Positions 19,048 through 63,318 of a stretch of DNA of 64,000 nucleotides are shown in pieces (position 1 is the first letter of the stretch; every line of letters starts with the position of its first letter). The DNA lies in contig CAZMQX010000001.1 of NCBI GenBank assembly GCA_964568745.1, positions 13,408 to 77,407 on the forward strand, written 5' to 3'. This stretch comes from an uncultured Candidatus Saccharibacteria bacterium (GTDB lineage Bacteria; Patescibacteriota; Saccharimonadia; Saccharimonadales; Saccharimonadaceae). The notes under the pieces are model-generated. The model worked only from the letters and a program-made list of their open reading frames with translations, was not told the DNA's origin and searched no databases. A program made the translations under genes and the position numbers.

Positions 19048-19855
19048 AATTTTTTCCTGGAATGTTAATGGTTTGCGCGCGGTAATTCGTAAAGGGGCCT
19101 TACAAAAATTCATCCAGGAATATCAGCCGGATATTTTGTGCCTGCAAGAGATTAAGGCGAAACCAGAGCAAGTGGAGTATGATTTTCCGGGATACAAGGT
19201 ATTTTGGAATCCAGCAGAGCGAGCTGGCTATAGCGGGACGGCTACATTAGTTAGGGAAGAATTATTATCATTGCTTTCCTCAGCTGACTTGTTCGCCAAA
19301 AATCAAGATAATTATGCTTCGGAAAGCAACGATAATAATTCTTTCAACATAGCTGTTGACGAAGGCAGGATTCTTACGCTTGACTTTGAAAAGTTTTATT
19401 TAGTAAATGTTTATGTGCCGAATTCGAAGCCGGATCTAGCGAGATTGAAATTGCGTGAGGCAGAGTGGGATCCGGAGCTGCTGCGGTACTTAAAAGAGCT
19501 AAAAAAGACCAAGCCGGTGGTGGTGTGTGGGGATTTTAATGCAGCGCATAATGAGATCGATATTGCGAGACCGAAGACCAATCATCATTCGGCGGGGTTT
19601 ACCGATGAAGAGAGAAAGGGAATCACAAATTACATTAAGGCTGGATTAGTCGATACCTTTCGCTATTTGCATCCAGGATCGGTCCATTATACCTGGTGGA
19701 GTCACTGGGGCCAAGCGCGAGCAAACAATATCGGCTGGCGGATCGATTATTTCTTTGTGTCTGAATCTCTTAAAAGTAAGCTAGTCTCAGCGGAAATTTA
19801 CGAAAACGTGATGGGATCGGATCACTGCCCGATTTCGATCGAGCTGGAGATCTAA
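19040..19855 (+). CDS. xth: Exodeoxyribonuclease III / AP endonuclease with an in-frame hairpin insertion
   Basis: SWNVNGLRA, LQEIK, GYSGTA, EGR, YVPNS, CGDFN, WRIDYF, SDHCP; start at ATG 19040. Confidence 0.93.
   Translation: MLKIFSWNVNGLRAVIRKGALQKFIQEYQPDILCLQEIKAKPEQVEYDFPGYKVFWNPAERAGYSGTATLVREELLSLLSSADLFAKNQDNYASESNDNNSFNIAVDEGRILTLDFEKFYLVNVYVPNSKPDLARLKLREAEWDPELLRYLKELKKTKPVVVCGDFNAAHNEIDIARPKTNHHSAGFTDEERKGITNYIKAGLVDTFRYLHPGSVHYTWWSHWGQARANNIGWRIDYFFVSESLKSKLVSAEIYENVMGSDHCPISIELEI
19255..19345. repeat. Palindromic element E3 (family B), in frame in xth
   Basis: 13-bp arm aagaattattatc/gataataattctt plus 9-bp ttgctttcc/ggaaagcaa separated by one mismatch; shares TCAGCTG(G)ACTTG and TTATGCTTC(A/G)GAAA with the priA element. 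Confidence 0.85.
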
Positions 19856-19857
19856 GT

Positions 19858-20637
19858 ATGGACTATTTTGAAAAAATTGAATCAAATCCATATAAAGACT
19901 TGATATGGAACTTGCCGGAGCAAAAGCAAGGGCTAGTTAATGTAGTTGGTGGTAGCGCGGGGAGTTTTCGCTCTGAGGTCAAGATCGCTGAGTACTTGAC
20001 AGAAAAGTATCCGGTGCATGAAGTGCGGGTAATAATGCCCGATTCGCTCAAGAACAAATTACCTGGCTTGCCCTTTTTTCATTTTTTGACATCAACGGAG
20101 TCAGGATCGTTTGCCGAAAGCCAAGAACTGGTCAATGTGTTTGATCGAGCCGATTTTAATTTGATGCTTGGCGATCTTTCAAAAAACAAGGTCACAGGAA
20201 AAGCCATATCGGATTCACTAAAAACGACTAGCCGCGAAACTCTGATTACGCGCGATACAATAGATTTAATCAATGATAATAACCCCGAACGAATACTAAT
20301 GAATGAGCAAATAATTCTAATGGCGTCACTCTCCCAGTTACAGAAGCTCCTAAGAGCGATCTATTACCCAAAGATGATTCTGATGTCACAATCGCTTGTC
20401 CAAGTGGCAGAGATATTGCACAAATTTACTTTGAGTTATCCGATCAAGATCGTCTCGCTTCATGACGGTCAAATCTTAGTCGCAAAAAATGGCTTAGTAA
20501 AGGCTGTGCCACTAGAAAAATCTGGCTACTCACCGATTTTGCTCTGGAGCGGGGAATTGGCTGCAAAAATTGTAGCAATAAATCTATACAATCCAAACGA
20601 TTTTATCGGTGCAACTATTTGTGCGATTTTTGATTAG
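19858..20637 (+). CDS. Divergent YjeF-C / carbohydrate-kinase-like protein
   Basis: K..GLVNVVGGS.GS start and C-terminal SGELAA resemble the NAD(P)HX dehydratase fold, but the catalytic motifs are degenerate. Confidence 0.5.
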   Translation: MDYFEKIESNPYKDLIWNLPEQKQGLVNVVGGSAGSFRSEVKIAEYLTEKYPVHEVRVIMPDSLKNKLPGLPFFHFLTSTESGSFAESQELVNVFDRADFNLMLGDLSKNKVTGKAISDSLKTTSRETLITRDTIDLINDNNPERILMNEQIILMASLSQLQKLLRAIYYPKMILMSQSLVQVAEILHKFTLSYPIKIVSLHDGQILVAKNGLVKAVPLEKSGYSPILLWSGELAAKIVAINLYNPNDFIGATICAIFD

Positions 20638-21268
20638 TTCTACTGGCTAACTTTTTTTCAATGTCTACCGCGTCGCGCGAAATATTGTGTCGGCGCTGTC
20701 GTAGGAAAAACCAAACGAAGACAAAGATGAGACAGCCAAAAATAAATAGGGAGTATTTGACTGGATCAGGCCAATTTGTCGCAAAGAGAATAATAGCATT
20801 GACAATGCCTAGAATTATGGTATAAATATATCTTCTAGCAAGAATGATCTTTTTTGCGAGTGGAAAATTACGCCGCGCGAGTGAATGTTTGGTGCAATCG
20901 TCGGGGTGACCTAGAATTTTGCCATAGACTAATAAATCTCCGCCTATAGCTGAAAGAAGATAATAAACAATAAAGATAAGTCCGACGACCCAATTGATTC
21001 TTAGGGTTAGAAAGAGCACTTGCGCGCCAGCGAGCGTAACGTCGGCCGCCATGTCAAATTTGGCGGCATATTTGCGGTATTTCGGTGTTTTGTCTTTGGG
21101 AAATGGCCATTTGCGTGCACAGGTGCCATCAAAAGCATCGGTAAGCTCAGCTATAATGAAGATAATAAAAGCCGCTTTGGGACCACCGCTATGCATCACA
21201 CAACCATAAAGCAAGGCGAGTGCCAGAATCAATCTAGATAAAGTTAATAAATCTGCTAGATATCTCAT
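20615..21268 (-). CDS. CDP-alcohol phosphatidyltransferase
   Basis: ADLLTLSRL and TDAFDGTCAR..G/A..D..AD signature; multiple TMs. Confidence 0.85.
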   Translation of the reverse strand: MRYLADLLTLSRLILALALLYGCVMHSGGPKAAFIIFIIAELTDAFDGTCARKWPFPKDKTPKYRKYAAKFDMAADVTLAGAQVLFLTLRINWVVGLIFIVYYLLSAIGGDLLVYGKILGHPDDCTKHSLARRNFPLAKKIILARRYIYTIILGIVNAIILFATNWPDPVKYSLFIFGCLIFVFVWFFLRQRRHNISRDAVDIEKKLASRTNQKSHK

Positions 21269-22500
21269 GCTTTCATTATAGCAGAATTAAATATCTTTTC
21301 TAATAATTTAATACGCTTAGAAATAAGTATCTCATCGCGGTGCGCAAGCATGACTTCAGACATCTTGGCGATGCAGTCTGGATGTTTGAAAATAGTATTC
21401 AAGGCTTTGGTCATTTCAGCGGGATTCTCGTTTTTGCTGATGATGTAGCTACCCTTAGGAATGACTTCTTTCATGTCTGGGTCACAGATAAATACCGGCA
21501 CCCCATGCGCTTCGGCTTCGATCAAAGTCATGCCGAAAGTATCGAAATTGTATGACACAAGTACGTCCAACTGAGAAGAAGCGATGGCGGACTGGACTCT
21601 TTCAAAAGCGGTGTTACCATGAAAGGTGACATTCATGTGGTGGCACTTGGCATAACGTTTGGCTCGAAAATAATCTCCGCCGCCGCCATAAACATCTAAG
21701 TGGTACTTACCATTGACTTTGGATAATGCTCTTAGGAAAGGCATCATGCGCTTTTCGGCGGAAACGCGAGAATGCCAGATAATCTTAAGTTCACCATCTT
21801 TTGCTAATGATTTAAGACTAACTTTATCTGGGAATTTGTCGTCGGGATAGCCATTTGGGAAAACTTTGATGGGGCTAACCACGCCGTAACGAATCAGTTT
21901 TTCACGGAAATGCTCTGAGGGCGTGAGTACCAAATCGGCAGCATTGGCATGACGCACCATTAATTCCCACATTTTAGCCTTGGCTAGACTGTCGGCATAG
22001 TAGTCGTCACGCTTGACTCTGGTTGAAGAAGACAAATACCAAGAATGAAACCAATTAATAAGAATAGCTACAATGGTGCGAAATCCTCTAGGTATAAGAT
22101 TGGTTTCACCCATATCCTCGCGCCCGTGCATGACTTGGATAGTCGGAATACCAAGTTTGCGGCCGAGGCGCAAGGCCGCGATTGAACAACCCGATTCGTA
22201 GTGCACATAGAAAATGTCGAATTCTTTGAGTTCGGGGTGTTTTTCTAGGAGCCATTTTTCGACGATGCCGGGGCGCCGAGACACGGGAGTCAGCCCGCGA
22301 AAGAATAGTTTGCAACTCGGGACTTGATAGATTTGTTTTTGGGCGAGATCTCTACGCTCAGATTCAGAGCGCGGGAAGCCGGTGCTAAAGATTAGTACTT
22401 CGTGGCCATCGTTCTCAAGGGCGGTTTTTTGGGCATTTATGGAGCTGACGATGCCGCCAGTTAAGTCTAAGTAGCAGTCTGAGAAAAATGCAACCTTCAT
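21265..22500 (-). CDS. GT4-family glycosyltransferase (glycolipid synthase-like)
   Basis: MKVAFFSDCY...GGIVSS, TPS, SRVSAEK, FDTFGMTLIEA. Confidence 0.85.
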   Translation of the reverse strand: MKVAFFSDCYLDLTGGIVSSINAQKTALENDGHEVLIFSTGFPRSESERRDLAQKQIYQVPSCKLFFRGLTPVSRRPGIVEKWLLEKHPELKEFDIFYVHYESGCSIAALRLGRKLGIPTIQVMHGREDMGETNLIPRGFRTIVAILINWFHSWYLSSSTRVKRDDYYADSLAKAKMWELMVRHANAADLVLTPSEHFREKLIRYGVVSPIKVFPNGYPDDKFPDKVSLKSLAKDGELKIIWHSRVSAEKRMMPFLRALSKVNGKYHLDVYGGGGDYFRAKRYAKCHHMNVTFHGNTAFERVQSAIASSQLDVLVSYNFDTFGMTLIEAEAHGVPVFICDPDMKEVIPKGSYIISKNENPAEMTKALNTIFKHPDCIAKMSEVMLAHRDEILISKRIKLLEKIFNSAIMKA

Positions 22501-22550
22501 ATCTTTATTTTACCACGTAGTGTGGTATAATCGAAACATTAACAATTATA

Positions 22551-22641
22551 ATATCGAGAAGGAGTGAGGGAACGGCCCTTTGAGCTCCTGCCAACCTACC
22601 GTTTTGGCAAGGTGGTAAATCCGACCAGAAAGGAAAGATAT
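22551..22641 (+). promoter_or_regulatory. SAM-I riboswitch (translational type)
   Basis: ATCGAGA-AGGAG-TGAGGGAACGGCCC-TTTGA-GCTCC-T-GCCAACC...AGGTGGTAAATCC...AAGAT matches the SAM-I core; P1 atatc/gatat overlaps the metK ATG; extended -10 TGGTATAAT at 22523-31. Confidence 0.88.
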
Positions 22642-23605
22642 GTTCTATAGAACTGCGGAGAGCGTTTCTCCGAAACACCCAGACAAATTGTGTGACCGAA
22701 TCTCTGACGCGATTTTGGACGCTTATTTTGAAAAAGATCCAAATGCTCGCGTAGCAGCTGAGACTTGTGGTGGACACGGCGTAGTCTTTGTGACTGGTGA
22801 AATCACGTCGACGGCTGACGATATCGATATCCCAGCGATAGTCCACAGAATCGCAGGTGACGATATTGAAGTTCATACCAAGATAGTAAAACAATCGCCC
22901 GAAATCGCTCAAGGCGTAGATACTGGTGGAGCCGGTGACCAGGGAATCATGATCGGTTTTGCCTGTGATGAAACACCAGAAATGCTACCACGCGAAGTGG
23001 TGCTAGCGAGACGACTCAACCAATACATCTATGACAAACATGCTTATGATGGCAAGACACAAATTACTTTGGCACCAGACGGCTCGGTGGATTCTATCGT
23101 GGCTAGTTTTCAGAATGTACCGCACGACGAACTAGAAAAAATCGTACGAGAATTCATTAAGGAACACAAACTTGAGGGTAAATTAGAACTCCATATTAAT
23201 CCGGCAGGAGATTGGAACCAAGGCGGTTTTGACGCTGATACCGGCTTGACTGGTCGTAAACTGATTGTAGATAATTATGGGCCACGCGTGGCGATCGGTG
23301 GTGGCTGTTATTCTGGCAAAGATCCATCAAAGGTTGACCGTTCGGCTGCCTATATGGCACGTCGAATTGCGGTAGATTACCTAAGGAAGCGTAAAGCTCA
23401 TGAGGTGTTGGTGCGACTAGCCTATGCGATCGGCTACGCCGAGCCGCTCGAAAAGACCGTGATCATTGATGGCAAGCCTGAGGAGATCGAGGGCTATGAT
23501 CTCACACCGAATGGCATCATCAAATACCTAGACCTCAAGCGGCCGATTTATGAGGAGACTGCTTGCTATGGACATTATGGCGAAGGATTCGACTGGGACC
23601 GCTAG
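22640..23605 (+). CDS. metK: S-adenosylmethionine synthetase (compact)
   Basis: ESVSPKHPDK.CD.ISD, GAGDQG, GLTGRK.IVD.YG, GGG..SGKD..KVDRS. Confidence 0.96.
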   Translation: MFYRTAESVSPKHPDKLCDRISDAILDAYFEKDPNARVAAETCGGHGVVFVTGEITSTADDIDIPAIVHRIAGDDIEVHTKIVKQSPEIAQGVDTGGAGDQGIMIGFACDETPEMLPREVVLARRLNQYIYDKHAYDGKTQITLAPDGSVDSIVASFQNVPHDELEKIVREFIKEHKLEGKLELHINPAGDWNQGGFDADTGLTGRKLIVDNYGPRVAIGGGCYSGKDPSKVDRSAAYMARRIAVDYLRKRKAHEVLVRLAYAIGYAEPLEKTVIIDGKPEEIEGYDLTPNGIIKYLDLKRPIYEETACYGHYGEGFDWDR

Positions 23606-24953
23606 AAAATATATCGCGATTGATTTAAAGTCATTTTATGCTTCGGTAGAGTGCGTGGAGCGTGGGCTGGATCCTCTGGAGGCTCGGTTAGTGGTAGCCG
23701 ACGTTTCACGCACCGAAAAAACAATTTGTCTTGCTGTGTCGCCCGCCTTGAAAGCCCTAGGCATTTCAGGACGAGCGCGACTTTTTGAGGTGTACCAAAA
23801 GGCAAGGGATTTTATTATCGCACCGCCTCGTATGCAAAAATATATTGAGGTGAGCCAGCGAATTTTTAGGATCTATGCTTCTTTTGTCGCGACAGAAGAC
23901 ATTCATGTTTATTCTATTGACGAAGTATTTATTGATGCGACTTCATATCTTAAAAATTACAAAATGACCGCACGTGAACTTGCGATGACAATGATCAAAA
24001 AAGTACTTGCCGAAACCGGAATTACAGCCACAGCCGGCATAGGCTCAAATCTGTATCTCGCCAAAATTGCGATGGATATTGAAGCGAAGCGCATGCGACC
24101 AGATGAGGACGGCGTAAGAATCGCTGAACTAGACGAAAAATCTTATCGAAGGAAATTGTGGGCGCATCAACCTTTGACAGATTTTTGGCGAGTGGGTGCC
24201 GGCTATGCCAGGAGACTAAAAAAGTACGGGATTAGTACGATGGGGGACTTAGCGCGCTTTTCGCTTGCTGGTTCGGATAAGCTGTATCACGAATTTGGCG
24301 TCAATGCAGAACTTCTGATCGACCACGCTTGGGGGTATGAGCCCACGACCATGACAGACATCAAGGCATATCGGTCAGAAAACCACAGTTTGTCGAGCGG
24401 GCAAGTACTATCTCAGCCCTATAGTTCCAGTCGAGCAAGAATAGTGATCGCAGAGATGGCGGACGAACTGGCCCTAAAGCTCGTCCGCGACGAGCTGATG
24501 ACCGATCAGATTGCGCTAACACTCGGACACGACAAGACTAACCTCAAAAATTATCACGGTAAAGTGGTGTCAGACCACTATGGTCGCATGGTCCCAGCTC
24601 ACGCTCACGGGACGATCAACTTGCCTAGTTTTACTTCTGCGTCCAATCAAATCACGACAAAGACTTTGGAATTGTTTGATAAAATCGTAGATCCGGATCT
24701 TTTGATACGCCGAATGTACATTGTGGCAAACCATGTTAGACCAGCTTCCCTAAAAAAGCAAGCGCAGCAATTAAATATATTTACTGATTACGAAAAACTG
24801 GCAGAAGATATTGCCCGCGAGAAGCGTCGTGCCAAGGCCATCCTCAAGATCAAAGATCGCTATGGCAAGAATGCGATTTTGAAAGGAGTTAATTTTGAGG
24901 AAGGCGCAACCCAAATCAAACGTAACCGACAAATTGGGGGACATCAAGCATGA
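23568..24953 (+). CDS. Y-family error-prone DNA polymerase (UmuC/ImpB/MucB/SamB type)
   Basis: YIAIDLKSFYASVEC, YSIDEVFID, TATAGIG.NLYLAKIAMD, DFWRVG; start overlaps the metK 3' end. Confidence 0.9.
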   Translation: MDIMAKDSTGTARKYIAIDLKSFYASVECVERGLDPLEARLVVADVSRTEKTICLAVSPALKALGISGRARLFEVYQKARDFIIAPPRMQKYIEVSQRIFRIYASFVATEDIHVYSIDEVFIDATSYLKNYKMTARELAMTMIKKVLAETGITATAGIGSNLYLAKIAMDIEAKRMRPDEDGVRIAELDEKSYRRKLWAHQPLTDFWRVGAGYARRLKKYGISTMGDLARFSLAGSDKLYHEFGVNAELLIDHAWGYEPTTMTDIKAYRSENHSLSSGQVLSQPYSSSRARIVIAEMADELALKLVRDELMTDQIALTLGHDKTNLKNYHGKVVSDHYGRMVPAHAHGTINLPSFTSASNQITTKTLELFDKIVDPDLLIRRMYIVANHVRPASLKKQAQQLNIFTDYEKLAEDIAREKRRAKAILKIKDRYGKNAILKGVNFEEGATQIKRNRQIGGHQA

Positions 24954-25144: not shown

Positions 25145-25191
25145 TCCTAAATTAAATAAAAAATGATCTTGGTCGCCTGCCAAGATTTTTT

Positions 25192-45532: not shown

Positions 45533-48352
45533 ATGGAAGCGATTATACATTTTATTCTTATGCCAATATTTTGGATCCCGGTGGTGGGTGTGCTCGCTTT
45601 TTTAACCTATCGAAATTACAAAAAACTCAATCGTATCAAAGTTTTGAACGTCGATTCGGTCTTGCTCATGCTTGAAATCCCGCGCACCAACGACAAAAAA
45701 GAGTTGGCTCAAGAACAATTATTTGCTAGTTTGCACGGAATTCTAAGAGATAAGCAAGAACTTAGAAACTCTGGTGGAGTACAAGAACATTTGTCATTTG
45801 AAATCGTTTCAACCGCCGGGCAAATCCGCTTTTATGTGTGGGTGCCAAAAGTATTGCAGAGTTTTGTAGAAGGGCAGATTTACTCTCAATATCCTACAGT
45901 GCAGATCTACAAGATGAATGAAGATTATGTAGATGGGCGCAAGAACTACCCTGTAAATTATATGACCGAACTTGGGTTAATCGAAGACGAGGCTCTACCA
46001 ATCAAAACTTTTGAAAGTTTTGAAGTCGACCCTCTGGCCGGTATCACGGGGACTTTGGCGAAACTCAGTCCCGATCGCTCTGAGGAGCTTTGGATCCAGA
46101 TTTTGACGAGACCGATTGCAGATGATTGGCACAAGACTACCACCGATAAATGGATCCGGCGGGTAAAGACTGGTACAAGATCGCTTTTTTCGGGCAGTGG
46201 GATCGACTGGACTTGGATCATCGAAGCATTTGCGGCGTTATTTAGACCACCTGCTGGCGGTACTAACTCAGATACAACGATCGAATTATCTGAACGCGAC
46301 AAGACACGGATCGCTAAAGCCGAAGAAAAGGCCACCAAACTCGGCTATGAAGTTAAAATCCGCCTGGCATATCTTGGCCAGAATGACACCGATGCTAAGT
46401 TGAACATGCAGGCTTTAGTTGGCACGTTTAAGCAATTCAATTCAACCAATCTGAATGGTTTTAAACAAATCGGTGGGACCTTTAATGCCGCAGATCTTGA
46501 TGCCTACAAGATGCGCCAATTCTCGGATCGTGGTTTTATACTGAATATCTCTGAGCTTGCTTCGGTGTATCATTTGCCTCATACTTCCGTCGAAACACCC
46601 AACATCGTCTGGGCGACTTCAAAGACCGCTGAACCGCCGGCTAAACTGCCGGTGTTGACTGGTGATACTAGCAACGATGAAAATGTCTCGGCTTTTGGCT
46701 TAACAAACTTCCGTGGCATCAATCATCAGTTTGGGCTACTGCGTCGCGATCGTTCAAGACATGTGTATATTATCGGTCAGACTGGGGCAGGGAAGAGCGG
46801 CATGCTAGAGCTTTTGGCACTTTCTGACGTATTTTATAATCAAGGCTATTGTATCATTGACCCGCATGGTGATTTTGCGATTGATAACTTAAAATTTATT
46901 CCGGAATCGAGGATCCGTGATGTGGTATATTTCAACCCGGCAGATACGGCATTTCCGGTCGCCTTTAATCCGCTTGAGGTGTCGGACCCAGCCAAAAAAC
47001 CGAATATCTGTTCTGAAGTAATCGGCGTCCTCAAGCGAATGTTTGGCGACTCATGGGGCCCGAGGCTTGAGCATATTTTGCGCTATACTTTGCTGGCTCT
47101 ACTTGATCGTCCTTCCACAACGCTACTCGATATCTCGCGTTTGCTCACGGACAAAGATTTTCGCAAAGAGACGCTCAAATATTGCAAAGATGTCACCGTC
47201 TTGCAATTCTGGAAACATGAATTTGGTCAATGGAACGAAAAACAGGTTAATGAATCGATCGCGCCGGTGCTAAACAAAGTTGGGGCCTTTACCGCTAACC
47301 CAATTATTCGCAACATCATCGGTCAGCCAAAGTCCTCTTTTGATATTCGTAAAATCATGGACGAGGGTAAGATCTTGGTCGTAAACCTATCTAAAGGTCT
47401 GATTGGTGAAGACAATGCTGGCATTCTTGGTGCATTCTTGGTGACGAAGGTCCAACTTGCGGCAATGTCTCGCTCCGATATACCACGAGTAGAGGATCGC
47501 CGGCCATTTTACTTATATGTAGACGAATTTCAGAACTTTGCGACTGATTCGTTTGCTGTGATCCTTTCTGAGGCACGAAAATACGGCCTAAATCTTACAG
47601 TGGCCAACCAATACGTTGCCCAGATGACTGATTCAGTGCGAGATGCAGTGTTTGGCAATGTTGGCACAACGATTTCGTTCAGAGTGTCTGCCGACGATGC
47701 GCCGATTCTAGTCAAGCAATTTGAGCCGACCTTTGAAGAATCTGATCTGATCCAGCTCAATAACCGTCATTTTGTAATCTCGATGATTATCGGTGGTGAA
47801 AAAGTCCCAGCTTTTTCAGCAACTACGCTTTCTATTCCAGAATCGCCGTCAGATAATTTTGAAGCCATCGTGGCGCATTCACGCGAATATTATGGTAGAC
47901 CGAGGCTCGAAGTGGAGCGTGAGATCCGTGAGACCATCGAACAAGCGGACAAATACAAGAAGAACTTAGCCGATTCTGGTCGACAAGAGCCAAAAATTAT
48001 CCTGCGGTCCGGGCTTAGCCCTAACACCGCCGAAGGTAAGGAGCGACTCGGTCTAAAGGATCTTGCGCGAATGGTTGAAGAAAACGGAGAGGGGAAGGTC
48101 CAATTTGTAAAACCAAAAGGGAAACGTGCCAATAAAAACCGCCAGCAGACCAAAAAAGGGAACCGTGCGTCGTCAAACAGCGGTAATTCCCCTGTTCGTC
48201 CAGAGGTGGAGTATCAAGAAAAGTCGACCGTCCCTATTAAACCATCCCACGATGCCGCCTCTGTTAATTCTCTATCTACCCCTGTTAAAGAGCCAGAGAA
48301 TTACGCCCCGAAAGATAACTCTGTAGATGGATTTCTATCTATAAAACACTAA
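45533..48352 (+). CDS. TrwB/VirD4-VirB4-like ATPase with N-terminal TM
   Basis: GQTGAGKS Walker A, IDPHGD, FNPL, LYVDEFQNF Walker B, SEARKY, ANQY, GNVGT. Confidence 0.85.
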   Translation: MEAIIHFILMPIFWIPVVGVLAFLTYRNYKKLNRIKVLNVDSVLLMLEIPRTNDKKELAQEQLFASLHGILRDKQELRNSGGVQEHLSFEIVSTAGQIRFYVWVPKVLQSFVEGQIYSQYPTVQIYKMNEDYVDGRKNYPVNYMTELGLIEDEALPIKTFESFEVDPLAGITGTLAKLSPDRSEELWIQILTRPIADDWHKTTTDKWIRRVKTGTRSLFSGSGIDWTWIIEAFAALFRPPAGGTNSDTTIELSERDKTRIAKAEEKATKLGYEVKIRLAYLGQNDTDAKLNMQALVGTFKQFNSTNLNGFKQIGGTFNAADLDAYKMRQFSDRGFILNISELASVYHLPHTSVETPNIVWATSKTAEPPAKLPVLTGDTSNDENVSAFGLTNFRGINHQFGLLRRDRSRHVYIIGQTGAGKSGMLELLALSDVFYNQGYCIIDPHGDFAIDNLKFIPESRIRDVVYFNPADTAFPVAFNPLEVSDPAKKPNICSEVIGVLKRMFGDSWGPRLEHILRYTLLALLDRPSTTLLDISRLLTDKDFRKETLKYCKDVTVLQFWKHEFGQWNEKQVNESIAPVLNKVGAFTANPIIRNIIGQPKSSFDIRKIMDEGKILVVNLSKGLIGEDNAGILGAFLVTKVQLAAMSRSDIPRVEDRRPFYLYVDEFQNFATDSFAVILSEARKYGLNLTVANQYVAQMTDSVRDAVFGNVGTTISFRVSADDAPILVKQFEPTFEESDLIQLNNRHFVISMIIGGEKVPAFSATTLSIPESPSDNFEAIVAHSREYYGRPRLEVEREIRETIEQADKYKKNLADSGRQEPKIILRSGLSPNTAEGKERLGLKDLARMVEENGEGKVQFVKPKGKRANKNRQQTKKGNRASSNSGNSPVRPEVEYQEKSTVPIKPSHDAASVNSLSTPVKEPENYAPKDNSVDGFLSIKH

Positions 48353-48359: not shown

Positions 48360-48411
48360 AAAGACAACTACAATCATTTTTATGCTTCAGAAAATAATCG
48401 TAGTTGTCTTT
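48360..48411. repeat. Intergenic hairpin carrying the family-B 3' motif; may act as a terminator
   Basis: 12-bp arms aaagacaactac/gtagttgtcttt enclosing aatcatttttatgcttcagaaaa, near-identical to priA 61705-61726. Confidence 0.75.
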
Positions 48412-48599: not shown

Positions 48600-48684
48600 C
48601 CAGGTTAATTTTCACAACATTTCACTCAATCCTCACCAAAAAAGTGTTGGCTCGGATGAGGAAATGTTGGTAAAAATTAACTGG
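48600..48684. repeat. Long imperfect intergenic palindrome
   Basis: Nested ccag/ctgg, ttaatttt/aaaattaa, caacatttc/gaaatgttg, ctc/gag, atcc/ggat. Confidence 0.75.
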
Positions 48685-56336: not shown

Positions 56337-56964
56337 GTATATATTATACACTGTTTTTTGCTTGAGACCGTTCATCTAGAAACTTCAGCGGGTTTGTTTC
56401 TGCTTTGATTTTTGTTTGTTCACAATGAATCCACCATGATCGATTTGCGTAAAGCAAGTCATAGATCATAGCCGTTGAGAGACTTATTGTGTTTTAACCA
56501 TATAGAGTTTTATTGGGAGGTGTGTTTTAGGGAAGGAACGCACGATTGTTTTTTCGCATCTCGCTTAATATTTAATGCGCGCGAAGCTCCTAGATGGTCG
56601 GTCTCAAACTTTGTTAATGTACGACTTTTTGTTTAGCGTTTTTGTGTTTTATCGCTTGTTATTAGTTTATGATATTTTGCCACAAAATGCAAGAGCTTTT
56701 TTGTACTTTTTTATGTAAATAGTTTTTCGCATGTGTGGAAAACCTTATCTGTTATTTTCCCGAACATACATTAATCAAAAACCGAACGCTAGAGGTCGCA
56801 AAACCCGAACAAATTCTTCTTGATTTTTCTTACATTTATTGCGCAATATAGCTAATGTTGGGTCCGCTATTCCCTGTCGCTCTACTATTCTTGACTAACT
56901 CGCTATGTTGTGGTATAATTAAGATATTGGCGTTACTTTTTGGTTTAAGAGAGGAGTGGGTTTT

Positions 56965-57294: not shown

Positions 57295-57584
57295 CGAAAC
57301 TTAATTCTGACAAATATGTTGAGCTGATGGAAAGGTTCGACACTGCTCGTAATGGTTATAGAGCACTTGCAAGGGGCGCGGAAGCATCACACATGATGCT
57401 GGAACAGTATGTTGATGTGGCAGATCTATTAGAACTCAAAAATACACTTGATGCAATCCTGGTAGAAGCCAAAGAAAGACTGAGGGACTACGATGAATAT
57501 CTCGAGGTCACAAGCGCGGCCGTTTCACTCGCAAACGCGGTTGAGTCTACGATGTATCTTGCGAGATACGTTTCTAATAAATAG
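57291..57584 (+). CDS. Hypothetical helical protein (paralogue 2)
   Basis: ATGA overlap, SD GGAGG, terminator downstream. Confidence 0.7.
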   Translation: MTKLNSDKYVELMERFDTARNGYRALARGAEASHMMLEQYVDVADLLELKNTLDAILVEAKERLRDYDEYLEVTSAAVSLANAVESTMYLARYVSNK

Positions 57585-57608
57585 TCTGTAGCCAAATCCC
57601 AACAAGAG

Positions 57609-57640
57609 ACCGGCGCAAATTTTTCAAAGCGCCGGTTTTT
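57609..57640 (+). terminator. Intrinsic terminator
   Basis: accggcgc...gcgccggt + T-tract. Confidence 0.75.
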
Positions 57641-57681
57641 ATTTTTCGTGATATAATGGATAAAAATAAGTGAGGTAAGCA

Positions 57682-58659
57682 ATGGATAATTCAGAATTCG
57701 ATGTGTTTCTGTGGGCGAACGAGATCGATGAAGTCAAAAATAACGTTTCGGCAGAGCTCTTTTTGTTTAACAAGAACTATACGCCATTCAAAATCAAATA
57801 TTCAGACAAGCTGACTGGGGCAGTGAAGGCAATGTTCATGCAAGAGGCGATCTCTTACATCATCACCGAGGCCGACAAAGGATTAGAGTGCCGAGAGTAT
57901 GAGCGTGCCGATGGTGAAGAAAAAGTGATTTATCGAACCCTCGTGTCTAAAGTCGGTCGCGCCGAGACTTTGATTCATTTGATTGAAAATGAATATAAGG
58001 ATATCGATTATTTCTCTGAAAACGAATACGATTTCAAAAAAGTTAAAGGCATCATCGCGCGTTTTACTTATCCGGGCGAAGACGGTATAAAAGCATTTTA
58101 TATCGCAAAATTATTGCCGGCTTCATCGGCGCTAAAAGGCACCTCGTCTTGGGAAATCAATGGCGAGTCGTTTGAACCGTTCTCTGCCGAGATCGCGCTC
58201 AAGATGCCAGATGACAACCAAGTTGCAATCGTTGATGGTAACATCGTCGTGTTTAATCAAGCGAAATTCGAAAATCTGTTTCAGTACGATTACAAATCAC
58301 AAGTAATAGCAGAGGCAAAGGCTAAGGAACTCTGCGAGAAGTACAAGCTATCATTTGCTGAAGGCTTGACGCTTGATGCCCTGCTTGCCGATAAAAAACC
58401 GATCCTTAAGAAGGTTCAAGCGATGGATATTGCCGAAGAAATGCCGCAAGATAAGCTACTTGATTACGCCGACGAGATGCAACTAGAGCTGATGACCGAC
58501 GATGATGGCTCGATCATCATCATGGACGATAAGGATCTCACGATGTTTGTGAATTTATTAAATGAGGACTACTATGTGTCGCCAGTCAATGGTAAACGCT
58601 ATGAGATTAAGTCCAAAAAACTACTAGGCGAGCCGGATGGTGAACCACCACGAGGATAA
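57682..58659 (+). CDS. DUF4868 / KwaB-like protein
   Basis: 325 aa acidic protein; VFNQAKFENLFQY and C-terminal FVNLLNEDYYVS....YEIKSK resemble DUF4868. Confidence 0.6.
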   Translation: MDNSEFDVFLWANEIDEVKNNVSAELFLFNKNYTPFKIKYSDKLTGAVKAMFMQEAISYIITEADKGLECREYERADGEEKVIYRTLVSKVGRAETLIHLIENEYKDIDYFSENEYDFKKVKGIIARFTYPGEDGIKAFYIAKLLPASSALKGTSSWEINGESFEPFSAEIALKMPDDNQVAIVDGNIVVFNQAKFENLFQYDYKSQVIAEAKAKELCEKYKLSFAEGLTLDALLADKKPILKKVQAMDIAEEMPQDKLLDYADEMQLELMTDDDGSIIIMDDKDLTMFVNLLNEDYYVSPVNGKRYEIKSKKLLGEPDGEPPRG

Positions 58660-58670
58660 CGTTTTTGGGA

Positions 58671-59207
58671 TTAATTATTTAATTCGAAGTAGGTGCTATC
58701 TACGAAGTTGGATTCGCCGAGAGTCTGGAAGGTTTTCTTCAAATCTTCTTTTGCCGCAGTGATTGAATCACCAGGGGTGAGATCGGATTCGATCTTGGCA
58801 TAGTAGCCGGGTTTGCCTTCGACTTTGTCGAGATAGATGTAATTCCCCTCTCCCATCTTGAGATCTTGACGACGACGAGATACCTCGGCGATGGGCTTGA
58901 AGCCGAGTTGCAAGATGATATTGACTAAGGTCTCGTAATCTTTGATCACGGTCTCTTCGGTGATGTCGATGCCGGAATCTTCGATATGACGCTTCAAGAT
59001 GAAGCTGTATTTGGCGGGTTTATCAACGGCGCGCATTTCGGTACGCATAATAAGACGCGGGAAGTTGGCGTGAGGTTTGTAATTGCGCGGCACATAAACA
59101 CGATCGTGTTGCCAATAAGTTGATGAAAAATTTAGTTCAATGTCGGCGAGTTTTTGCACGAAGTTGTCGTGACTGTTCAACTTGCATTTGACGATGGCTC
59201 TTCTCAT
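58671..59207 (-). CDS. CYTH-domain-like protein
   Basis: Q.DRVY, LIMR, LGF.....VSRRR, IYLDKVE; the usual ExE motif is degenerate. Confidence 0.6.
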   Translation of the reverse strand: MRRAIVKCKLNSHDNFVQKLADIELNFSSTYWQHDRVYVPRNYKPHANFPRLIMRTEMRAVDKPAKYSFILKRHIEDSGIDITEETVIKDYETLVNIILQLGFKPIAEVSRRRQDLKMGEGNYIYLDKVEGKPGYYAKIESDLTPGDSITAAKEDLKKTFQTLGESNFVDSTYFELNN

Positions 59208-60823
59208 AAGAATATTATATCACATATCCGAGCTTCGAGGGATTTGACGCCGTTAAAATTGTTTTCGGTAAATCTGACTAAAGGCTCGATGCGATCAAAG
59301 TCGGGGTCGATTTGGAGCCATTTTTCAGGAGCAAAGAAAGCGAGGCATTTTAGTATTTTGCCGTGATGATCACGAAGATCGAGGCGGAGATGATTGCGAT
59401 CGGCACCCATGCGAGTGATGTTTGCAATCTCTACATTCTTCAAGCGAAAGATCGGTTCTTCGTTCCCTGGACCGTAAGGTTCGAGTTTTTTAAGCTCATC
59501 CAAGAGATTGAGGTTTAACTCAGAAAAATCGGTGATATCGAGATCAGCATGGCACAAAAAGTATTTTTCTTGATCTTTAAGATGGAGGCTGCGGTAGTAT
59601 TCATTAATTTTTTCGCGGAATGCGTAGAGATTTTTGCCCTCTAGCCTAACGCCGGCGGCAGCAGCGTGACCACCACCGCTAATTATAGTATCTTTAGCAA
59701 AATTCAGAGCATCGGCAAGGTTAAAATCACCGAAGCTCCGGCCAGAACCTTTGTATATGCCATTGCCCAGCTCGGTCAGAACAAAGGCAGGCTTTTGGTG
59801 TGCTTCGACCAATCGCCCTGCAACGATACCAAGAATCCCTTCGTGCCAATGGCCAATCGCGATGATGACTGGATCATCGCTGAGGCCTTGCTTTTCAATG
59901 TCACTGATGGCGGAAATCTGCTCGGTTTTACGTTTTTTATTTAATTGTTCGAGCTTTTCGGCAAGAGAGGCGGCGATGGGTGCTGAATCGGCACGGAGTA
60001 GATCTAGCGACAAATCGGCGGTCTCAAGACGGCCGGCGGCGTTAAGCCGTGGACCGATCTGGAAACCGATAGATTCTGAGTTTAGATTTTTGAGGCCGGC
60101 CCTGCGCATCAGCTCGATGAGGCCGGGGCGGCGAGTTTTTTCGAGAACTTTGATGCCATAGAATCCGAGGCGACGGTTCTCCCCTGTCAAAGTCATACTA
60201 TCGCAAATCGTACCGAGCAAAACAAGGTCAAGAAGCCATTTTTCTTGGCCGTTTTTGATTAGCCCTTCACTTACAAGAGCTTCGGCGAGCTTAAAAGCGA
60301 CGCCAACACCGGCAAGATTCATCAGTGCATCGGTCGGGGCATCTTTGCGGTGAGGATTAATCACGGCGATAGCTTCAGGCATCTCGTCGGCAGTTTCATG
60401 GTGGTCGGTAATAATTGTGTCGATATGTTCGTGGTTTAGTTCGTTTACGATGTCGTGATTGCGAGAACCACAGTCTACAGTAATGACAAGTGTGGCTTTG
60501 TTAGTTTTGGCACGCGTAATGAGACGTGAGCTCATGCCATAACCATCGGCAAAACGATCAGGAAGCATGATTTTGATATCTTTTGGATCTAAACCGGCAA
60601 GGACAAGAGCTTGCTCCATCACGGTACTGGCGGTAACACCATCGACATCATAGTCACCATAAATGAGGATTTTTTCGTGAGATTTTATGGCTGTTTTGAT
60701 ACGATCAATAGCCTTCGTCATGTCTTTTAGCAAAAATGGGTCGATGCGATCTTCGTATTTGGGGCTTACAAAATCTTGGTCCAAACCACGGTTTTTGATG
60801 AGTTGTATAAAAATGTTGCTCAA
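59204..60823 (-). CDS. recJ: ssDNA-specific exonuclease RecJ
   Basis: IYGDYDVDG, RFADGYG, ITVDCG, ITDHH (DHH), GPRLNAAGRL, SGRS, GGHAAAAG. Confidence 0.96.
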   Translation of the reverse strand: MSNIFIQLIKNRGLDQDFVSPKYEDRIDPFLLKDMTKAIDRIKTAIKSHEKILIYGDYDVDGVTASTVMEQALVLAGLDPKDIKIMLPDRFADGYGMSSRLITRAKTNKATLVITVDCGSRNHDIVNELNHEHIDTIITDHHETADEMPEAIAVINPHRKDAPTDALMNLAGVGVAFKLAEALVSEGLIKNGQEKWLLDLVLLGTICDSMTLTGENRRLGFYGIKVLEKTRRPGLIELMRRAGLKNLNSESIGFQIGPRLNAAGRLETADLSLDLLRADSAPIAASLAEKLEQLNKKRKTEQISAISDIEKQGLSDDPVIIAIGHWHEGILGIVAGRLVEAHQKPAFVLTELGNGIYKGSGRSFGDFNLADALNFAKDTIISGGGHAAAAGVRLEGKNLYAFREKINEYYRSLHLKDQEKYFLCHADLDITDFSELNLNLLDELKKLEPYGPGNEEPIFRLKNVEIANITRMGADRNHLRLDLRDHHGKILKCLAFFAPEKWLQIDPDFDRIEPLVRFTENNFNGVKSLEARICDIIFL

Positions 60824-60835
60824 TCTATACCCCTG

Positions 60836-61126
60836 TTAGCCAATAGTTTTACTGGGTTTGCTGCCTTTTTGCGATTTGATGACAATGGACTGAAGTTCTT
60901 TTAGAATCGGGAAAGATTTGTTGGTCTGATAGATCTTGTTGTTGCCTTTTTTGGTGACGATGAGGAAACCGCCTTTCGCCATGCGTTCGAGCTCGCGCTG
61001 GATATTGCCTGGGTCTTCTTTGATGAGTTTAGCTAAACCTCTGACGTGAGTCTTAAAATCTGGGTACTTGGCAAAGACAACCAATATTTTGCGACGCACA
61101 CGTGACGTAACAAATATTTCTAACAT
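60836..61126 (-). CDS. Winged-helix (ArsR-like) DNA-binding protein
   Basis: S.VRRKIL..F, VRGLAKLI.ED.GNIQREL, GN.K.Y..N. Confidence 0.75.
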   Translation of the reverse strand: MLEIFVTSRVRRKILVVFAKYPDFKTHVRGLAKLIKEDPGNIQRELERMAKGGFLIVTKKGNNKIYQTNKSFPILKELQSIVIKSQKGSKPSKTIG

Positions 61127-61239
61127 ATTACCTCGCTTAATTCCTTTTATTATAGCACGATTTCGGTAATAATTACAACATTATTACATGGAGATTGACA
61201 GCAATTTATTCGCGATTCACTTCGTGCTATAATTGTAGT

Positions 61240-63318
61240 ATGTTTTATGAGGTGATACCGGAGGGGAAAGTGGAGGAGCTGACGTATTCGAGCGATGATT
61301 CCCTTTTGCCGGGGCAGGTGGTGTTGGTACCGGTTGGACGGCGAGTGGTACCAGGGATGGTGATTAAAAAAGTTGCGCAACCGGATTTTGCCACGAAAAA
61401 AATTTTGCAAGTTTTGTATTCAAAGCCGCTGCCGCAACATCTTCTAAAAACAATTGGCTTTATTCATGATTATTACATGGTATCATCGGGTTCAGCAGTG
61501 TCATTAGTACTGCCCAGAGGAGTACAGAAGAAACGCCGAAAAACCGAACAGATGTTCGGTACTATGCAGGATGTGGCTGTGTCTGTTTTTTCTTCAGCTG
61601 GACTTGAAAATTCAGAAACGTCATACGCAGGACGGCCGGGAGAACCGCCCGCCTCGCGGGCGAACCTCTCGGCGTCGTCTGGAATATACGTTCCTGAATT
61701 TTCAAATCATTTTATGCTTCAGAAAAAACAGATTCAGCCATATATCCCACTTAATACCTATCAAAAAAATGCCCTAGAAGGCCTTTTAAGGGCGCCAGGA
61801 GCCACGAAACTACTGCATGGCGTTACTGGTAGTGGTAAAACTAATATATACCTCAAAATGGCTTTAAATGCCCTTAGACAGCAAAAATCAACTATTCTTT
61901 TAGTGCCGGAAATTGCTTTGACGAGTCAGCTTGTTCGGGTTTTCCAGGATTATTTTGGGCCACGAGTGGTAGTGATGCACTCTAAACAAACAGAGGCAGA
62001 GCGGCATTTGATTTTTGAATCGATTCTGGCATCCAGAGAACCGCTAGTGGTGATTGGGCCGAGGTCGGCGCTGTTTGCTCCTCTATCTAATTTGGGGTTA
62101 ATTATCATCGACGAAGAACACGAAAACGCCTATTACCAAGAAAATTCGCCAAGATATTCTACAATCAGAGTAGCGAGTTTTATGGCAGATAAGTTAGGCT
62201 GCCCTCTGATATTGGGCTCGGCTACTCCAGACATTTCAGATTATTATTTGGCTCTAAAACGCGGTTCGTTGGTGCAACTACTCAAAAAGGCGAAAAATGC
62301 CGCTATAAAACCAGATATTGAAATCATTGACTTCAAAAACAGGGAGAATTTTAGCAAAAATAAATATTTTTCTAATCCCCTGTTAAAATCCATACAATCA
62401 AATCTAGAACAGGGGCGGCAGACGCTAATTTTTCACAACCGCAGAGGCTCTGCACCACTCACAATTTGTGAAAATTGTGGAGAGGAGATTCTGTGCCCAA
62501 ATTGTTTTTTGCCACTAAACTTGCATGCTGATCAATACGAGTTACATTGTCATACGTGTGGTTTTACAGAGAAGGTGCCAGCGGGATGCCCAAAGTGCGG
62601 AACGCCTGGATTAGTCCATAAAGGTTTTGGGACAAAACTACTAGAATCAGAGTTACATAAACTCTTCCCAAAGGCGGAAATTCGGAGATTCGATGCAGAT
62701 AACAAAAAAGACGAGAGTTTAGACGCTGTTTATTCAGAAGTAAAAAATGGCGAAGTGGATATAATAATCGGTACTCAAACGGTGGCAAAAGGACTAGATT
62801 TACCAAAATTGGCTACGGTAGGAGTAGTACAGGCAGATGCGGGGCTTTCGCTACCTGATTATATGGCGGAGGAACGAGTTTTTCAGTTGCTCACCCAGGT
62901 AATTGGAAGAGTAGGTCGTGGTCATCTAAAAGAAGCGAAGGTTTTCATCCAAACTTTTCGGCCGGAGCATCCAGTTTTGCAGTTTGCGGCAAGTGAGGAC
63001 TATTTGGGATTTTATGATTATCTAATACAGAGGCGACGTAAAGCCGGTTTTCCGCCGTTTCGATTTGTAATGAAACTTGAAATCACTATGAAAACAGAGG
63101 CAATAGTGCTGAAAAAGGTGCGAGAGCTAGTGTCGCGATTGTCGCAAGATGCTAGACTAATCGTTTCTCCACCGCAACCAGGATTTCATGAAAGAACTGC
63201 CAAAGGTTACACCTGGCAAATCATCGTGCGAAGTAAATCACGAAAAGCATTGATAGAAATATGCGAGAAACTAGACAAAAACTTCCGAGTGACTTTAGAC
63301 CCACCAGGGTTACTATAA
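61240..63318 (+). CDS. priA: Primosomal protein N' with a ~60-aa in-frame palindromic insertion
   Basis: G..V.VP.G.R, LHGVTGSGKT, IIDEEH, GSATP, NRRG, CxxC x4 zinc module, KGLD, Q..GR.GR; start at ATG 61240. Confidence 0.96.
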   Translation: MFYEVIPEGKVEELTYSSDDSLLPGQVVLVPVGRRVVPGMVIKKVAQPDFATKKILQVLYSKPLPQHLLKTIGFIHDYYMVSSGSAVSLVLPRGVQKKRRKTEQMFGTMQDVAVSVFSSAGLENSETSYAGRPGEPPASRANLSASSGIYVPEFSNHFMLQKKQIQPYIPLNTYQKNALEGLLRAPGATKLLHGVTGSGKTNIYLKMALNALRQQKSTILLVPEIALTSQLVRVFQDYFGPRVVVMHSKQTEAERHLIFESILASREPLVVIGPRSALFAPLSNLGLIIIDEEHENAYYQENSPRYSTIRVASFMADKLGCPLILGSATPDISDYYLALKRGSLVQLLKKAKNAAIKPDIEIIDFKNRENFSKNKYFSNPLLKSIQSNLEQGRQTLIFHNRRGSAPLTICENCGEEILCPNCFLPLNLHADQYELHCHTCGFTEKVPAGCPKCGTPGLVHKGFGTKLLESELHKLFPKAEIRRFDADNKKDESLDAVYSEVKNGEVDIIIGTQTVAKGLDLPKLATVGVVQADAGLSLPDYMAEERVFQLLTQVIGRVGRGHLKEAKVFIQTFRPEHPVLQFAASEDYLGFYDYLIQRRRKAGFPPFRFVMKLEITMKTEAIVLKKVRELVSRLSQDARLIVSPPQPGFHERTAKGYTWQIIVRSKSRKALIEICEKLDKNFRVTLDPPGLL
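61569..61747. repeat. Palindromic element E6 (family B with a nested GC-rich hairpin), in frame in priA
   Basis: tggctg-NN-tctgttttttct/agaaaaaacaga-NN-cagcca (18 of 20 bp), ttgaaaattcag/ctgaattttcaa (12 bp), aacgt/acgtt, apical cgcccgc-ctc-gcgggcg. Confidence 0.9.

What the first reader, a model, noticed from the sequence alone, without database searches (positions are those of the whole stretch)
19255..61747. Second element family (B) shared by xth and priA, with a compensatory base change
xth reads ttcc-TCAGCTG-ACTTG...CAAG-ataa-TTATGCTTC-ggaa (19276-19324). priA reads ttct-TCAGCTGGACTTG...CAA-atcatt-TTATGCTTC-agaa (61590-61724). The closing pair covaries (ttcC/Ggaa vs ttcT/Agaa) and the unpaired internal-loop sequences are conserved, which is expected of a recognised structure rather than a chance palindrome. 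The apical loop is variable: 12 nt in xth, but about 90 nt in priA, where it holds a further GC-rich hairpin, suggesting nested insertion of one element into another. The 3' motif is read in different frames (YASE vs FMLQK).
Basis: seen in the sequence. Interest (0 to 1): 0.7.

Follow-up and report, generated by a model that had tools for sequence, protein, structure and literature searches.

The report
In-frame palindromic repeat family in Saccharibacteria
The two look-alike hairpins in xth and priA are copies of one roughly 180-base palindromic selfish repeat that sits in frame inside housekeeping genes of one genus of gut Saccharibacteria, much as the Rickettsia palindromic elements do, and the short xth copy is a full copy that lost its middle.

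Summary
Both shared boxes lie where stated and are far above chance: the 5' box gives 2 hits against 0.02 expected, the 3' box 3 against 0. Both sit inside long palindromes that are read through in frame.

They belong to a real repeat family of about 177-195 nt with termini CGGGTCCTG.../...CCACCCG.
- This genome holds full copies in priA, tatD, obg and cysS, and a deleted copy in xth.
- A covariance model finds the family in 55 of 150 genomes of the same genus, up to 12 copies each. Some records of that genus are titled Candidatus Nanosyncoccus or Saccharibacteria.
- It finds none in 148 genomes of 118 other genera of the order.
- Of 95 distinct copies, 62 lie inside open frames of housekeeping genes.
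- Stems covary strongly: 96.6% of cells are paired and 29 of 36 pairs show double changes.
- G.T mismatches are no commoner than A.C, so the palindrome is kept at the DNA level rather than as RNA.

The "nested insertion" reading is wrong. Close relatives carry the full-length element at the same xth site, in either orientation, and short forms have differing deletion end points.

No direct target duplication, no cognate transposase and no Rfam family was found. Flanks are inverted-complementary instead.

Verdict: a new member of the RPE-like kind, in a new phylum. Other first-reader notes on this same genome already describe the wider system.

The parts
18992..19855 (+). xth (exodeoxyribonuclease III) ORF of 287 aa that hosts the short family-B copy in frame
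   Evidence: ORF list. PDB homologues reach E 2.7e-78, with about 19 extra residues in one loop. In the AF2 model the core is confident (pTM 0.81) and residues 104-120 fall below pLDDT 50.
19257..19343 (+). Internally deleted family-B copy, an 87-nt palindrome. It consists of arms 19257-19279 and 19321-19343, the 5' box 19280-19291, a leftover 5' arm of the middle stem 19292-19303, and the 3' box 19304-19324.
   Evidence: Inverted repeat I1. Alignment with full-length copies at the same site in G012, G110 and G020. Close relatives P0014, P0025 and P0008 have the same outer residues plus about 30 more in the middle.
19235..19252 (+). Host codons for G-T-A-T-L-V that form the outermost, now imperfect, pairing with 19346-19360
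   Evidence: In relatives the 3' arm ATAGCAGTTCC (IAVP) is the exact reverse complement of GGAACTGC.AT (GTAI). Xth proteins without an element have GDPLTEGR there instead.
19346..19360 (+). Degenerate inverted copy of the host flank, encoding NIAVD just before the conserved EGR
61195..63318 (+). priA ORF of 707 aa that hosts a full-length family-B copy in the linker before the GVTGSGKT motif
   Evidence: ORF list. The same linker is empty in G060, G042 and G053, and holds other element families in G070 and G012.
61563..61750 (+). Full-length family-B copy with diverged outer termini. The covariance-model match covers 61583-61730.
   Evidence: CM R1 scores 156 bits, E 1.9e-29. The fold gives -105.7 kcal/mol. 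It is 94% identical to the tatD copy at G000:C10:11710-11862.
61575..61593 (+). Outer left arm GGCTGTGTCTGTTTTTTCT, which pairs with 61721-61739
   Evidence: The same arm type, GGCTGAAyCTgTTTTTTCT, occurs in other genes of other genomes.
61594..61606 (+). 5' box TCAGCTGGACTTG
   Evidence: It is conserved across copies.
61601..61621 (+). Middle stem, 5' arm, which pairs with 61688-61708
   Evidence: Inverted repeat I5. A compensatory T/A swap separates it from the tatD copy.
61621..61631 (+). Conserved unpaired box TCATACGCAGG
   Evidence: The columns are invariant or nearly so in A1 and A2.
61646..61662 (+). Apical GC hairpin CGCCCGC-CTC-GCGGGCG
   Evidence: The tatD copy has CGTCTGC-TTC-GCAGACG, which is two compensatory double changes.
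61679..61689 (+). Conserved unpaired box CTGGAATATAC
61688..61708 (+). Middle stem, 3' arm
61709..61720 (+). 3' box ATTTTATGCTTC
61721..61739 (+). Outer right arm AGAAAAAACAGATTCAGCC

Best explanation
Family B is a genus-restricted, non-autonomous palindromic repeat of about 177-195 nt in gut Saccharibacteria. Some records of the genus are titled Candidatus Nanosyncoccus. It is of the same kind as the Rickettsia palindromic elements.

What is shown:
- Anatomy. Outer arms with termini CGGGTCCTG.../...CCACCCG enclose a 5' box TCAGCTGGACTTG and a 3' box CAAATCA..TTATGC. Inside these lie a middle stem, a mismatched bubble of about six bases a side formed by the invariant boxes (T)CATACGC and GGAATATA, and a GC-rich inner stem with an apical hairpin.
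- Location. Copies sit in intergenic DNA and, more often, in frame in permissive loops and linkers of housekeeping proteins.
- History of the xth copy. The copy in this genome is a full copy that lost about 90 central bases.

What is inferred:
- Genic copies are transcribed and translated as a disordered surface insert. The grounds are that they are kept free of stop codons and that the insert has low confidence in the model.
- The arms are kept complementary by a DNA-level process, either template switching within quasipalindromes or conversion between arms. That process also mirrors host flank sequence into the opposite arm.
- Copies decay by internal deletion.
- Copies can flip in place by recombination between their arms.

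The way new copies arise is not shown. No transposase and no direct target duplication were found. Likely candidates are hairpin-primed or repair-associated copying into reused sites, or gene conversion between copies.
For: Family and spread:
- CM R1 finds five matches in this genome: priA and tatD on both strands, plus a split copy.
- nhmmer adds copies cut by contig ends. Those lie in obg and cysS, in frame.
- 55 of 150 genomes of the genus have 1-12 copies.
- None of 148 genomes from 118 other genera of the order has one.
- A pattern scan of 185,579 species hits almost only Saccharibacteria and Nanosyncoccus MAGs. The hits elsewhere fail the CM.

In-frame residence:
- 62 of 95 distinct copies lie in open frames of priA, tatD, xth, tsaD, trmD, pheT, der, lepA, mnmA, obg, recG and others.
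- Genic copies keep on average 1.95 open frames. Intergenic copies keep 0.59, and 15 of 29 have none.
- In the AF2 model of Xth the core is confident and the insert falls below pLDDT 50.

Palindrome maintenance:
- 96.6% of cells are paired, 29 of 36 pairs show double changes, and 0 of 500 shuffles reach the observed values.
- G.T 20 against A.C 24.

Deletion origin of the xth copy.

In-place inversion: G070 and G018 carry the same element reversed at the same site.

Recent activity:
- The G000 priA and tatD copies are 94% alike.
- Two G046 copies in different genes are 96.6% alike.
- The priA site is empty in the nearest sampled relative, G060.

Flanks: 6.9 of 12 positions are inverted-complementary against 3.9 +/- 0.3 when permuted, and 24 of 27 copies have no direct repeat.
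Against: - Nothing shows how a new copy is made.
- None of seven transposase Pfam families is shared by five element-rich genomes, and this genome has none of them.
- There is no direct target duplication, so the word 'mobile' rests on similarity patterns alone.
- The unpaired boxes are more conserved than the stems, and one G.T pair is fixed in 71 of 93 copies. Purely neutral selfish DNA does not explain either.
- Translation of the insert is inferred, not observed.
- Reuse of the same protein loops by several element families could mean targeting rather than mere tolerance.
Confidence: 0.8

Rival explanations
1. The hairpins are cis-acting RNA structures selected in each message, for example RNase III or decay sites that tune expression of housekeeping genes. 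The conserved boxes would be recognised by a protein.
For: Covariation is strong and the unpaired boxes are invariant. One G.T position is fixed. The folds are very stable.
Against: - There is no G.U tolerance beyond two columns: G.T 20 against A.C 24.
- 14 of 62 genic copies are antisense to the gene, and they keep the same fixed G.T, which reads as A.C in the message.
- A third of copies are intergenic.
- Presence at a given site is patchy between close species.
- Large internal deletions are tolerated.
- No Rfam family matches.
Confidence: 0.07
2. One reading: a short hairpin element of the xth type is the basic unit, and the priA copy arose when a GC-rich element inserted into its apical loop.
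For: - The central 75 nt also occur between quite different outer parts, as in the obg copy at the ends of contigs C10 and C7.
- Different cores occupy the same palindromic flanks at the tatD site in different species. Insertion into the centre of an older palindrome is therefore not excluded as a general process.
Against: - Every one of about 190 CM matches has box, stem and core together.
- Short forms are rare, confined to xth in a few lineages, and have different end points.
- Relatives that share this genome's extended outer-arm residues, such as P0014, P0025 and P0008 at 78-83% identity, have the full-length form.
Confidence: 0.03
3. An intervening sequence removed after transcription or translation, that is, intron-like or intein-like.
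For: It lies inside essential genes and is flanked by a long helix, as rRNA intervening sequences are.
Against: - Genic copies are kept stop-free and in frame, while intergenic ones are not. Removal from the message would make that unnecessary.
- The frame differs between copies.
- There are no intein or intron signatures and no Rfam match.
Confidence: 0.02

Closest known systems
Rickettsia palindromic elements (RPE; Ogata et al. 2000, as summarised in PMC2229807)
   Same: - A palindromic repeat of 100-200 bp predicted to form a long stem-loop.
- Dispersed copies in intergenic DNA and fused in frame into conserved housekeeping proteins of a small-genome, host-dependent bacterium.
- No known transposase, and target duplication unclear.
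- Several families coexist.
   Different: - No sequence relation, and a different phylum (Saccharibacteria/Patescibacteria).
- Restricted to one genus.
- Flanks are locus-specific inverted repeats that include mirrored host codons.
- The same protein loops are reused by different families.
- In-place inversion and internal deletion are documented.
Bacterial MITEs such as Correia/NEMIS, ERIC, RUP and YPAL (PMC2229807, PMC10969869)
   Same: Small, non-coding and multicopy, with terminal inverted repeats. Transcripts would fold into long hairpins. Some are co-translated with host genes.
   Different: - No direct target-site duplication (24 of 27 copies).
- No TA termini.
- No IS with matching ends, and none of the seven transposase families tested is shared by the five element-rich genomes searched.
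- The whole element is one palindrome rather than two short TIRs.
REP/BIME elements with RAYT (Y1) transposases (PMC3733652)
   Same: Palindromic repeats maintained with compensatory changes.
   Different: REPs are 20-40 bp, extragenic and carry GTAG/CGTC heads. No Y1 transposase is present here.
Quasipalindrome template-switch mutagenesis (Ripley model; studied in E. coli by Lovett and co-workers; from my own knowledge)
   Same: It would explain apparent compensatory evolution without RNA-level selection, and the outward growth of a palindrome into flanking host sequence.
   Different: It is a mutational process, not an element family. Its action here is inferred from the mismatch spectrum and mirrored flanks, not shown.

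Membership tests
RPE-like in-frame palindromic repeats (the kind, not the Rickettsia families themselves) | Repeat of 100-200 bp that folds into one long imperfect hairpin | tested here: met
   Folds of 12 copies give -71 to -112 kcal/mol over 260-nt windows. The consensus structure has 36 pairs.
RPE-like in-frame palindromic repeats (the kind, not the Rickettsia families themselves) | Many dispersed copies within a genome and across related genomes | tested here: met
   Five copies in this genome. 55 of 150 genus genomes hold it, up to 12 copies each.
RPE-like in-frame palindromic repeats (the kind, not the Rickettsia families themselves) | Inserted in frame in conserved protein genes without breaking them | tested here: met
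   62 of 95 copies lie in open frames. The Xth fold is intact in the model and the PDB alignment is continuous apart from one loop.
RPE-like in-frame palindromic repeats (the kind, not the Rickettsia families themselves) | The insert is translated and the host protein stays active | not testable with these tools
   Only indirect support: genic copies are stop-free and intergenic ones are not.
Rickettsia RPE families proper | Sequence similarity to RPE-1 to RPE-8, and occurrence in Rickettsia | tested here: not met
   The single Rickettsia MAG hit of the pattern scan fails the CM. Every pattern-scan hit outside records titled Saccharibacteria or Nanosyncoccus fails the CM, except one record titled only 'bacterium'. 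The CM finds no copy in 148 genomes of 118 other genera of the order.
MITE (non-autonomous derivative of an IS) | Terminal inverted repeats | tested here: met
   Termini CGGGTCCTG.../...CCACCCG are shared by copies with unrelated flanks.
MITE (non-autonomous derivative of an IS) | Direct target-site duplication | tested here: not met
   24 of 27 copies with clear termini have no direct repeat. The flanks are inverted-complementary instead.
MITE (non-autonomous derivative of an IS) | A full-length IS with the same ends, or a cognate transposase, in the same genomes | tested here: not met
   In five element-rich genomes PF01797, PF07282, PF01548, PF13358 and PF00872 are absent, PF00665 occurs in 2 and PF01609 in 1. 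This genome has none. Only seven families were tested, and MAGs are incomplete.
REP/BIME with RAYT | 20-40 bp extragenic palindromes with GTAG/CGTC heads and a Y1 transposase | tested here: not met
   The size, the genic location and the absence of PF01797 all disagree.
Curated structured RNA (Rfam 15) | Match to a covariance model | tested here: not met
   Seven loci searched at E up to 1 gave only one chance miRNA hit elsewhere.

The most novel reading that the evidence does not exclude
These elements may not be classical transposons. They could spread and persist through a hairpin-based, transposase-free route that uses host replication and repair, such as fold-back priming or template switching. 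That route would create locus-specific inverted duplications of the target, including mirrored copies of essential host codons. It would keep both arms in step with synonymous change in the host gene. It would also make the centres of existing palindromes preferred landing sites, so that several families reuse the same protein loops.
Probability: 0.25. Interest if true: 0.8.

Novelty: new member of a known kind. Interest (0 to 1): 0.55.

Why it matters
Saccharibacteria have some of the smallest and most streamlined bacterial genomes. Even so, this genus tolerates several families of selfish palindromes inside essential genes such as priA, xth, tatD, obg, cysS, tsaD and trmD. That parallels Rickettsia in an unrelated, host-dependent lineage and suggests a recurrent outcome of reductive evolution.

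There are practical consequences:
- The elements break assemblies. Three contig ends in this genome lie inside copies.
- They inflate protein lengths.
- They mark permissive loops in conserved enzymes.

The inverted, rather than direct, flank duplications and the DNA-level maintenance of pairing offer a natural system for studying quasipalindrome correction and palindrome growth. I found no description of such elements in Saccharibacteria or Patescibacteria in the paper library.

Tried and rejected
- **Rfam.** An E-value search of seven loci found nothing relevant.
- **Viral contigs.** Eight pattern hits all fail the covariance model, so they are chance. Hits in other phyla in the genome collection are chance as well. 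My estimate is that the pattern would give about 100 chance hits over 596 Gb, and none of these hits passes the CM.
- **Transposase partner.** Seven Pfam families were searched in five element-rich genomes. None is shared, and this genome has none.
- **Direct target duplication.** Not found. Comparing the filled G000 priA site with the empty G060 site shows the element in place of a 29-nt linker, without a clean junction.
- **RNA-level selection.** Rejected on the mismatch spectrum and on the antisense copies.
- **Nested insertion.** Rejected on comparative grounds.
- **Literature.** Three searches found no report of such elements in Saccharibacteria or Patescibacteria.


Full report

In xth (ORF 18992-19855) an 87-nt palindrome spans 19257-19343. 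Its arms are AAGAATTATTATCATTGCTTTCC and GGAAAGCAACGATAATAATTCTT. They enclose TCAGCTGACTTG, TTCGCCAAAAAT, CAAGATAA and TTATGCTTC.

In priA (ORF 61195-63318) the arms are GGCTGTGTCTGTTTTTTCT (61575-61593) and AGAAAAAACAGATTCAGCC (61721-61739). They enclose TCAGCTGGACTTG, a 21-bp middle stem (61601-61621 with 61688-61708), a GC-rich centre, and ATTTTATGCTTC.

Both are the two longest inverted repeats of the window. Both are read through in frame, and the 3' box is read in different frames.

The boxes are not chance. The 5' box gives 2 matches against 0.02 expected and the 3' box 3 against 0.00. In the whole 643-kb genome the 5' box occurs only at these two sites.

**Copies in this genome.**
- A third full copy lies in a tatD-family gene on another contig, G000:C10:11710-11862. 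It is 94% identical to the priA copy. It differs by two double changes in the apical hairpin (CGCCCGC/GCGGGCG against CGTCTGC/GCAGACG) and by a T/A swap in the middle stem.
- Three contig ends stop inside further copies.
- The ends of C7 and C10 join into one copy that lies antisense and in frame in obg. The end of C24 cuts a sense copy in cysS.
- The genome therefore has four full-length copies and the short xth copy, all in housekeeping genes.

**The family.** I aligned fourteen copies from six genomes. The consensus has 36 pairs, 22 of them with compensatory double changes. I built covariance model R1 from this alignment.

R1 finds the family in 55 of 150 genomes of the same genus, with 1-12 matches each. 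It finds none in 148 genomes from 118 other genera of the order.

A pattern made of the two invariant boxes was scanned over one genome per species of bacteria and archaea. It hits almost only MAGs titled Candidatus Nanosyncoccus sp. or Candidatus Saccharibacteria bacterium, from ruminant gut, termite gut and other animal-associated samples. Hits in other phyla and in viral contigs fail the model. Several of the named records are the same loci as the same-genus handles, so the genus includes records named Nanosyncoccus.

Comparing near-identical copies that have unrelated flanks places the termini at CGGGTCCTG... and ...CCACCCG, often preceded by GG and followed by CC. The full length is about 177-195 nt. 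The priA copy of this window has diverged termini and spans roughly 61563-61750.

**Where the copies sit.** Of 95 distinct copies, 62 lie inside stop-free frames that extend at least 90 nt on both sides. Of these, 48 are sense, mostly in one frame, and 14 are antisense.

Judging by their flanking protein sequence, the hosts are PriA, TatD, Xth, TsaD, an exonuclease I-like protein, TrmD, PheT, Der, LepA, MnmA, Obg, RecG, a PcrA/UvrD-like helicase, RecJ and others.

Genic copies keep on average 1.95 of six frames open. Intergenic copies keep 0.59, and 15 of 29 have none. That contrast is what translation through the insert predicts. It argues against removal from the message.

Xth aligns end to end with solved exonuclease III structures, apart from about 19 extra residues in one loop. 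An AF2 model built on 40 relatives has a confident core (pTM 0.81). The insert falls below pLDDT 50 at residues 104-120, between strands 83-88 and 127-131.

**Why the xth copy is a deleted full copy rather than a scaffold.**
- In G012, G110 and G020 the same xth site holds a full-length element with the same middle stem, GTTTGCCAAAAATG.../...CATTTTTGGACAAAC.
- The window's TTCGCCAAAAAT is the 5' arm of that stem. It now joins directly to CAAGAT, the remains of CAAATC.
- Among 120 close Xth relatives from public data, most carry a full-length copy.
- Relatives that share this genome's extended outer arms have about 30 extra residues exactly where this genome has none. Compare LVREELSSLLFS.DLLAKN-VIHW...IYIFGLANQ-LYVSKSNNDNSF with LVREELLSLLSSADLFAKN-Q-DNYASESNDNNSF.
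- Other short forms (G060, G005, and P0024, P0033, P0041, P0061, P0074 and more) have different end points. Deletion therefore happened repeatedly.
- G070 and G018 carry the same element at the same site in reverse orientation. Recombination between the two arms would produce that.

**DNA palindrome or RNA structure.** On 95 distinct copies, 96.6% of cells are standard pairs, 29 of 36 pairs show double changes (610 cells), and no shuffle or slide control comes near. The alignment was fitted to the model, which favours pairing. The independent MAFFT alignment gave the same picture.

Outside two special columns, G.T or T.G cells number 20, A.C or C.A cells 24, and other mismatches 70. No excess appears on the sense strand of host genes. 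An RNA helix under selection would tolerate G.U far better than A.C. A DNA palindrome kept by copying one arm from the other would not.

I therefore read the covariation as DNA-level maintenance. One column is G.T in 71 of 93 copies, A.T in 22 and never G.C, and this includes all 14 antisense copies. I cannot explain that.

**Flanks.** Copies with clear termini show no direct target duplication (24 of 27). The 12 nt outside the two termini are inverted-complementary at 6.9 positions, against 3.9 +/- 0.3 in 2000 permutations.

In xth the 3' arm ATAGCAGTTCC (IAVP) is the reverse complement of the conserved host codons GGAACTGC.AT (GTAI). Xth proteins without an element have GDPLTEGR there instead.

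In tatD of relatives the 5' flank mirrors each species' own codons for (L/P)(V/I)A of the conserved AIGE motif. This holds even around a different GC-rich core.

One arm can thus be essential coding sequence while the other tracks it. Three readings fit:
- fold-back priming at insertion;
- template switching afterwards;
- insertion into the centre of older palindromes.

I could not separate them. This agrees with another first-reader note on the same genome.

**Activity and site reuse.** Copies at different genes in one genome can be nearly identical: G000 priA and tatD at 94%, two G046 copies at 96.6%. Orthologous sites in different genomes are about 70% alike. The priA linker is empty in G060, G042 and G053. 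It holds other element families in G070 and G012, and family B in G020 and G122.

The tatD loop likewise holds family B, a family encoding RPAGPSPRAAGA-like peptides, a family encoding EAASARNDGPEERR-like peptides, or nothing. This means either recent insertion at reused, permissive or preferred sites, or gene conversion between copies.

No Y1, TnpB, IS110, IS630 or IS256 transposase domain was found in five element-rich genomes. The rve and DDE_Tnp_1 domains occur in only some of them. This genome has none of the seven.

**Comparison with what is known.** The closest known kind is the Rickettsia palindromic element. RPEs are 105-146 bp, fold into long stem-loops, are fused in frame into 19 protein genes with the product still active, have unclear target duplication, and have no known transposase (PMC2229807).

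Family B shares all the features I could test but has no sequence relation and lies in another phylum. It fails two defining features of MITEs, namely direct target duplication and a cognate IS. It fails those of REP/RAYT. It matches no Rfam family. Three literature searches found no description of such elements in Saccharibacteria or Patescibacteria.

**Verdict.** The family assignment and the covariation are right. The nested-insertion and RNA-structure readings are not supported.

This is a new member of a known kind, with one unusual trait, the inverted flank duplication, that deserves follow-up.

Noticed in passing
window 48360-48411: A 21-bp-stem hairpin lies 8 nt after the stop of the 939-aa ORF 45533-48352. 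It carries ATCATTTTTATGCTTCAGAAAA, which shares a 17-nt run with the family-B 3' box of priA. It may be an extreme deletion remnant or a terminator built from one.
   Followed up: partly
Folds are -52 to -82 kcal/mol. It is covered by other notes on this genome.
   Followed up: partly
L191-L220 (tatD loci of relatives); window 61195-61800 and L285-L292 (priA): The same protein loops are occupied in different species by family B, by a family encoding RPAGPSPRAAGA-like peptides, by a family encoding EAASARNDGPEERR-like peptides, or by nothing. The last family also sits in xth of G058.
   Followed up: partly
G000 contig ends: C7 30761-30874, C10 26333-26408, C24 8247-8309: Three contigs end inside family-B copies. 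The C7 and C10 ends overlap and join obg in frame across the element. The C24 end cuts a copy in cysS. The repeats evidently break the assembly.
   Followed up: yes
alignment A2, columns 65/101: One stem position is G.T in 71 copies, A.T in 22 and never G.C, whatever the orientation to the host gene. A second position (37/125) is G.T in 44.
   Followed up: partly
window 56362-56607, 6026-6196 and 48600-48684: Further long inverted repeats (25, 22 and 24 nt arms) that do not belong to family B. Not examined beyond folding.
   Followed up: no
L268, L269, L270 (G129): Three intergenic family-B copies are 99% identical, and so is about 40 nt of left flank and 60 nt of right flank. The element may here be part of a larger repeated unit.
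   Followed up: no
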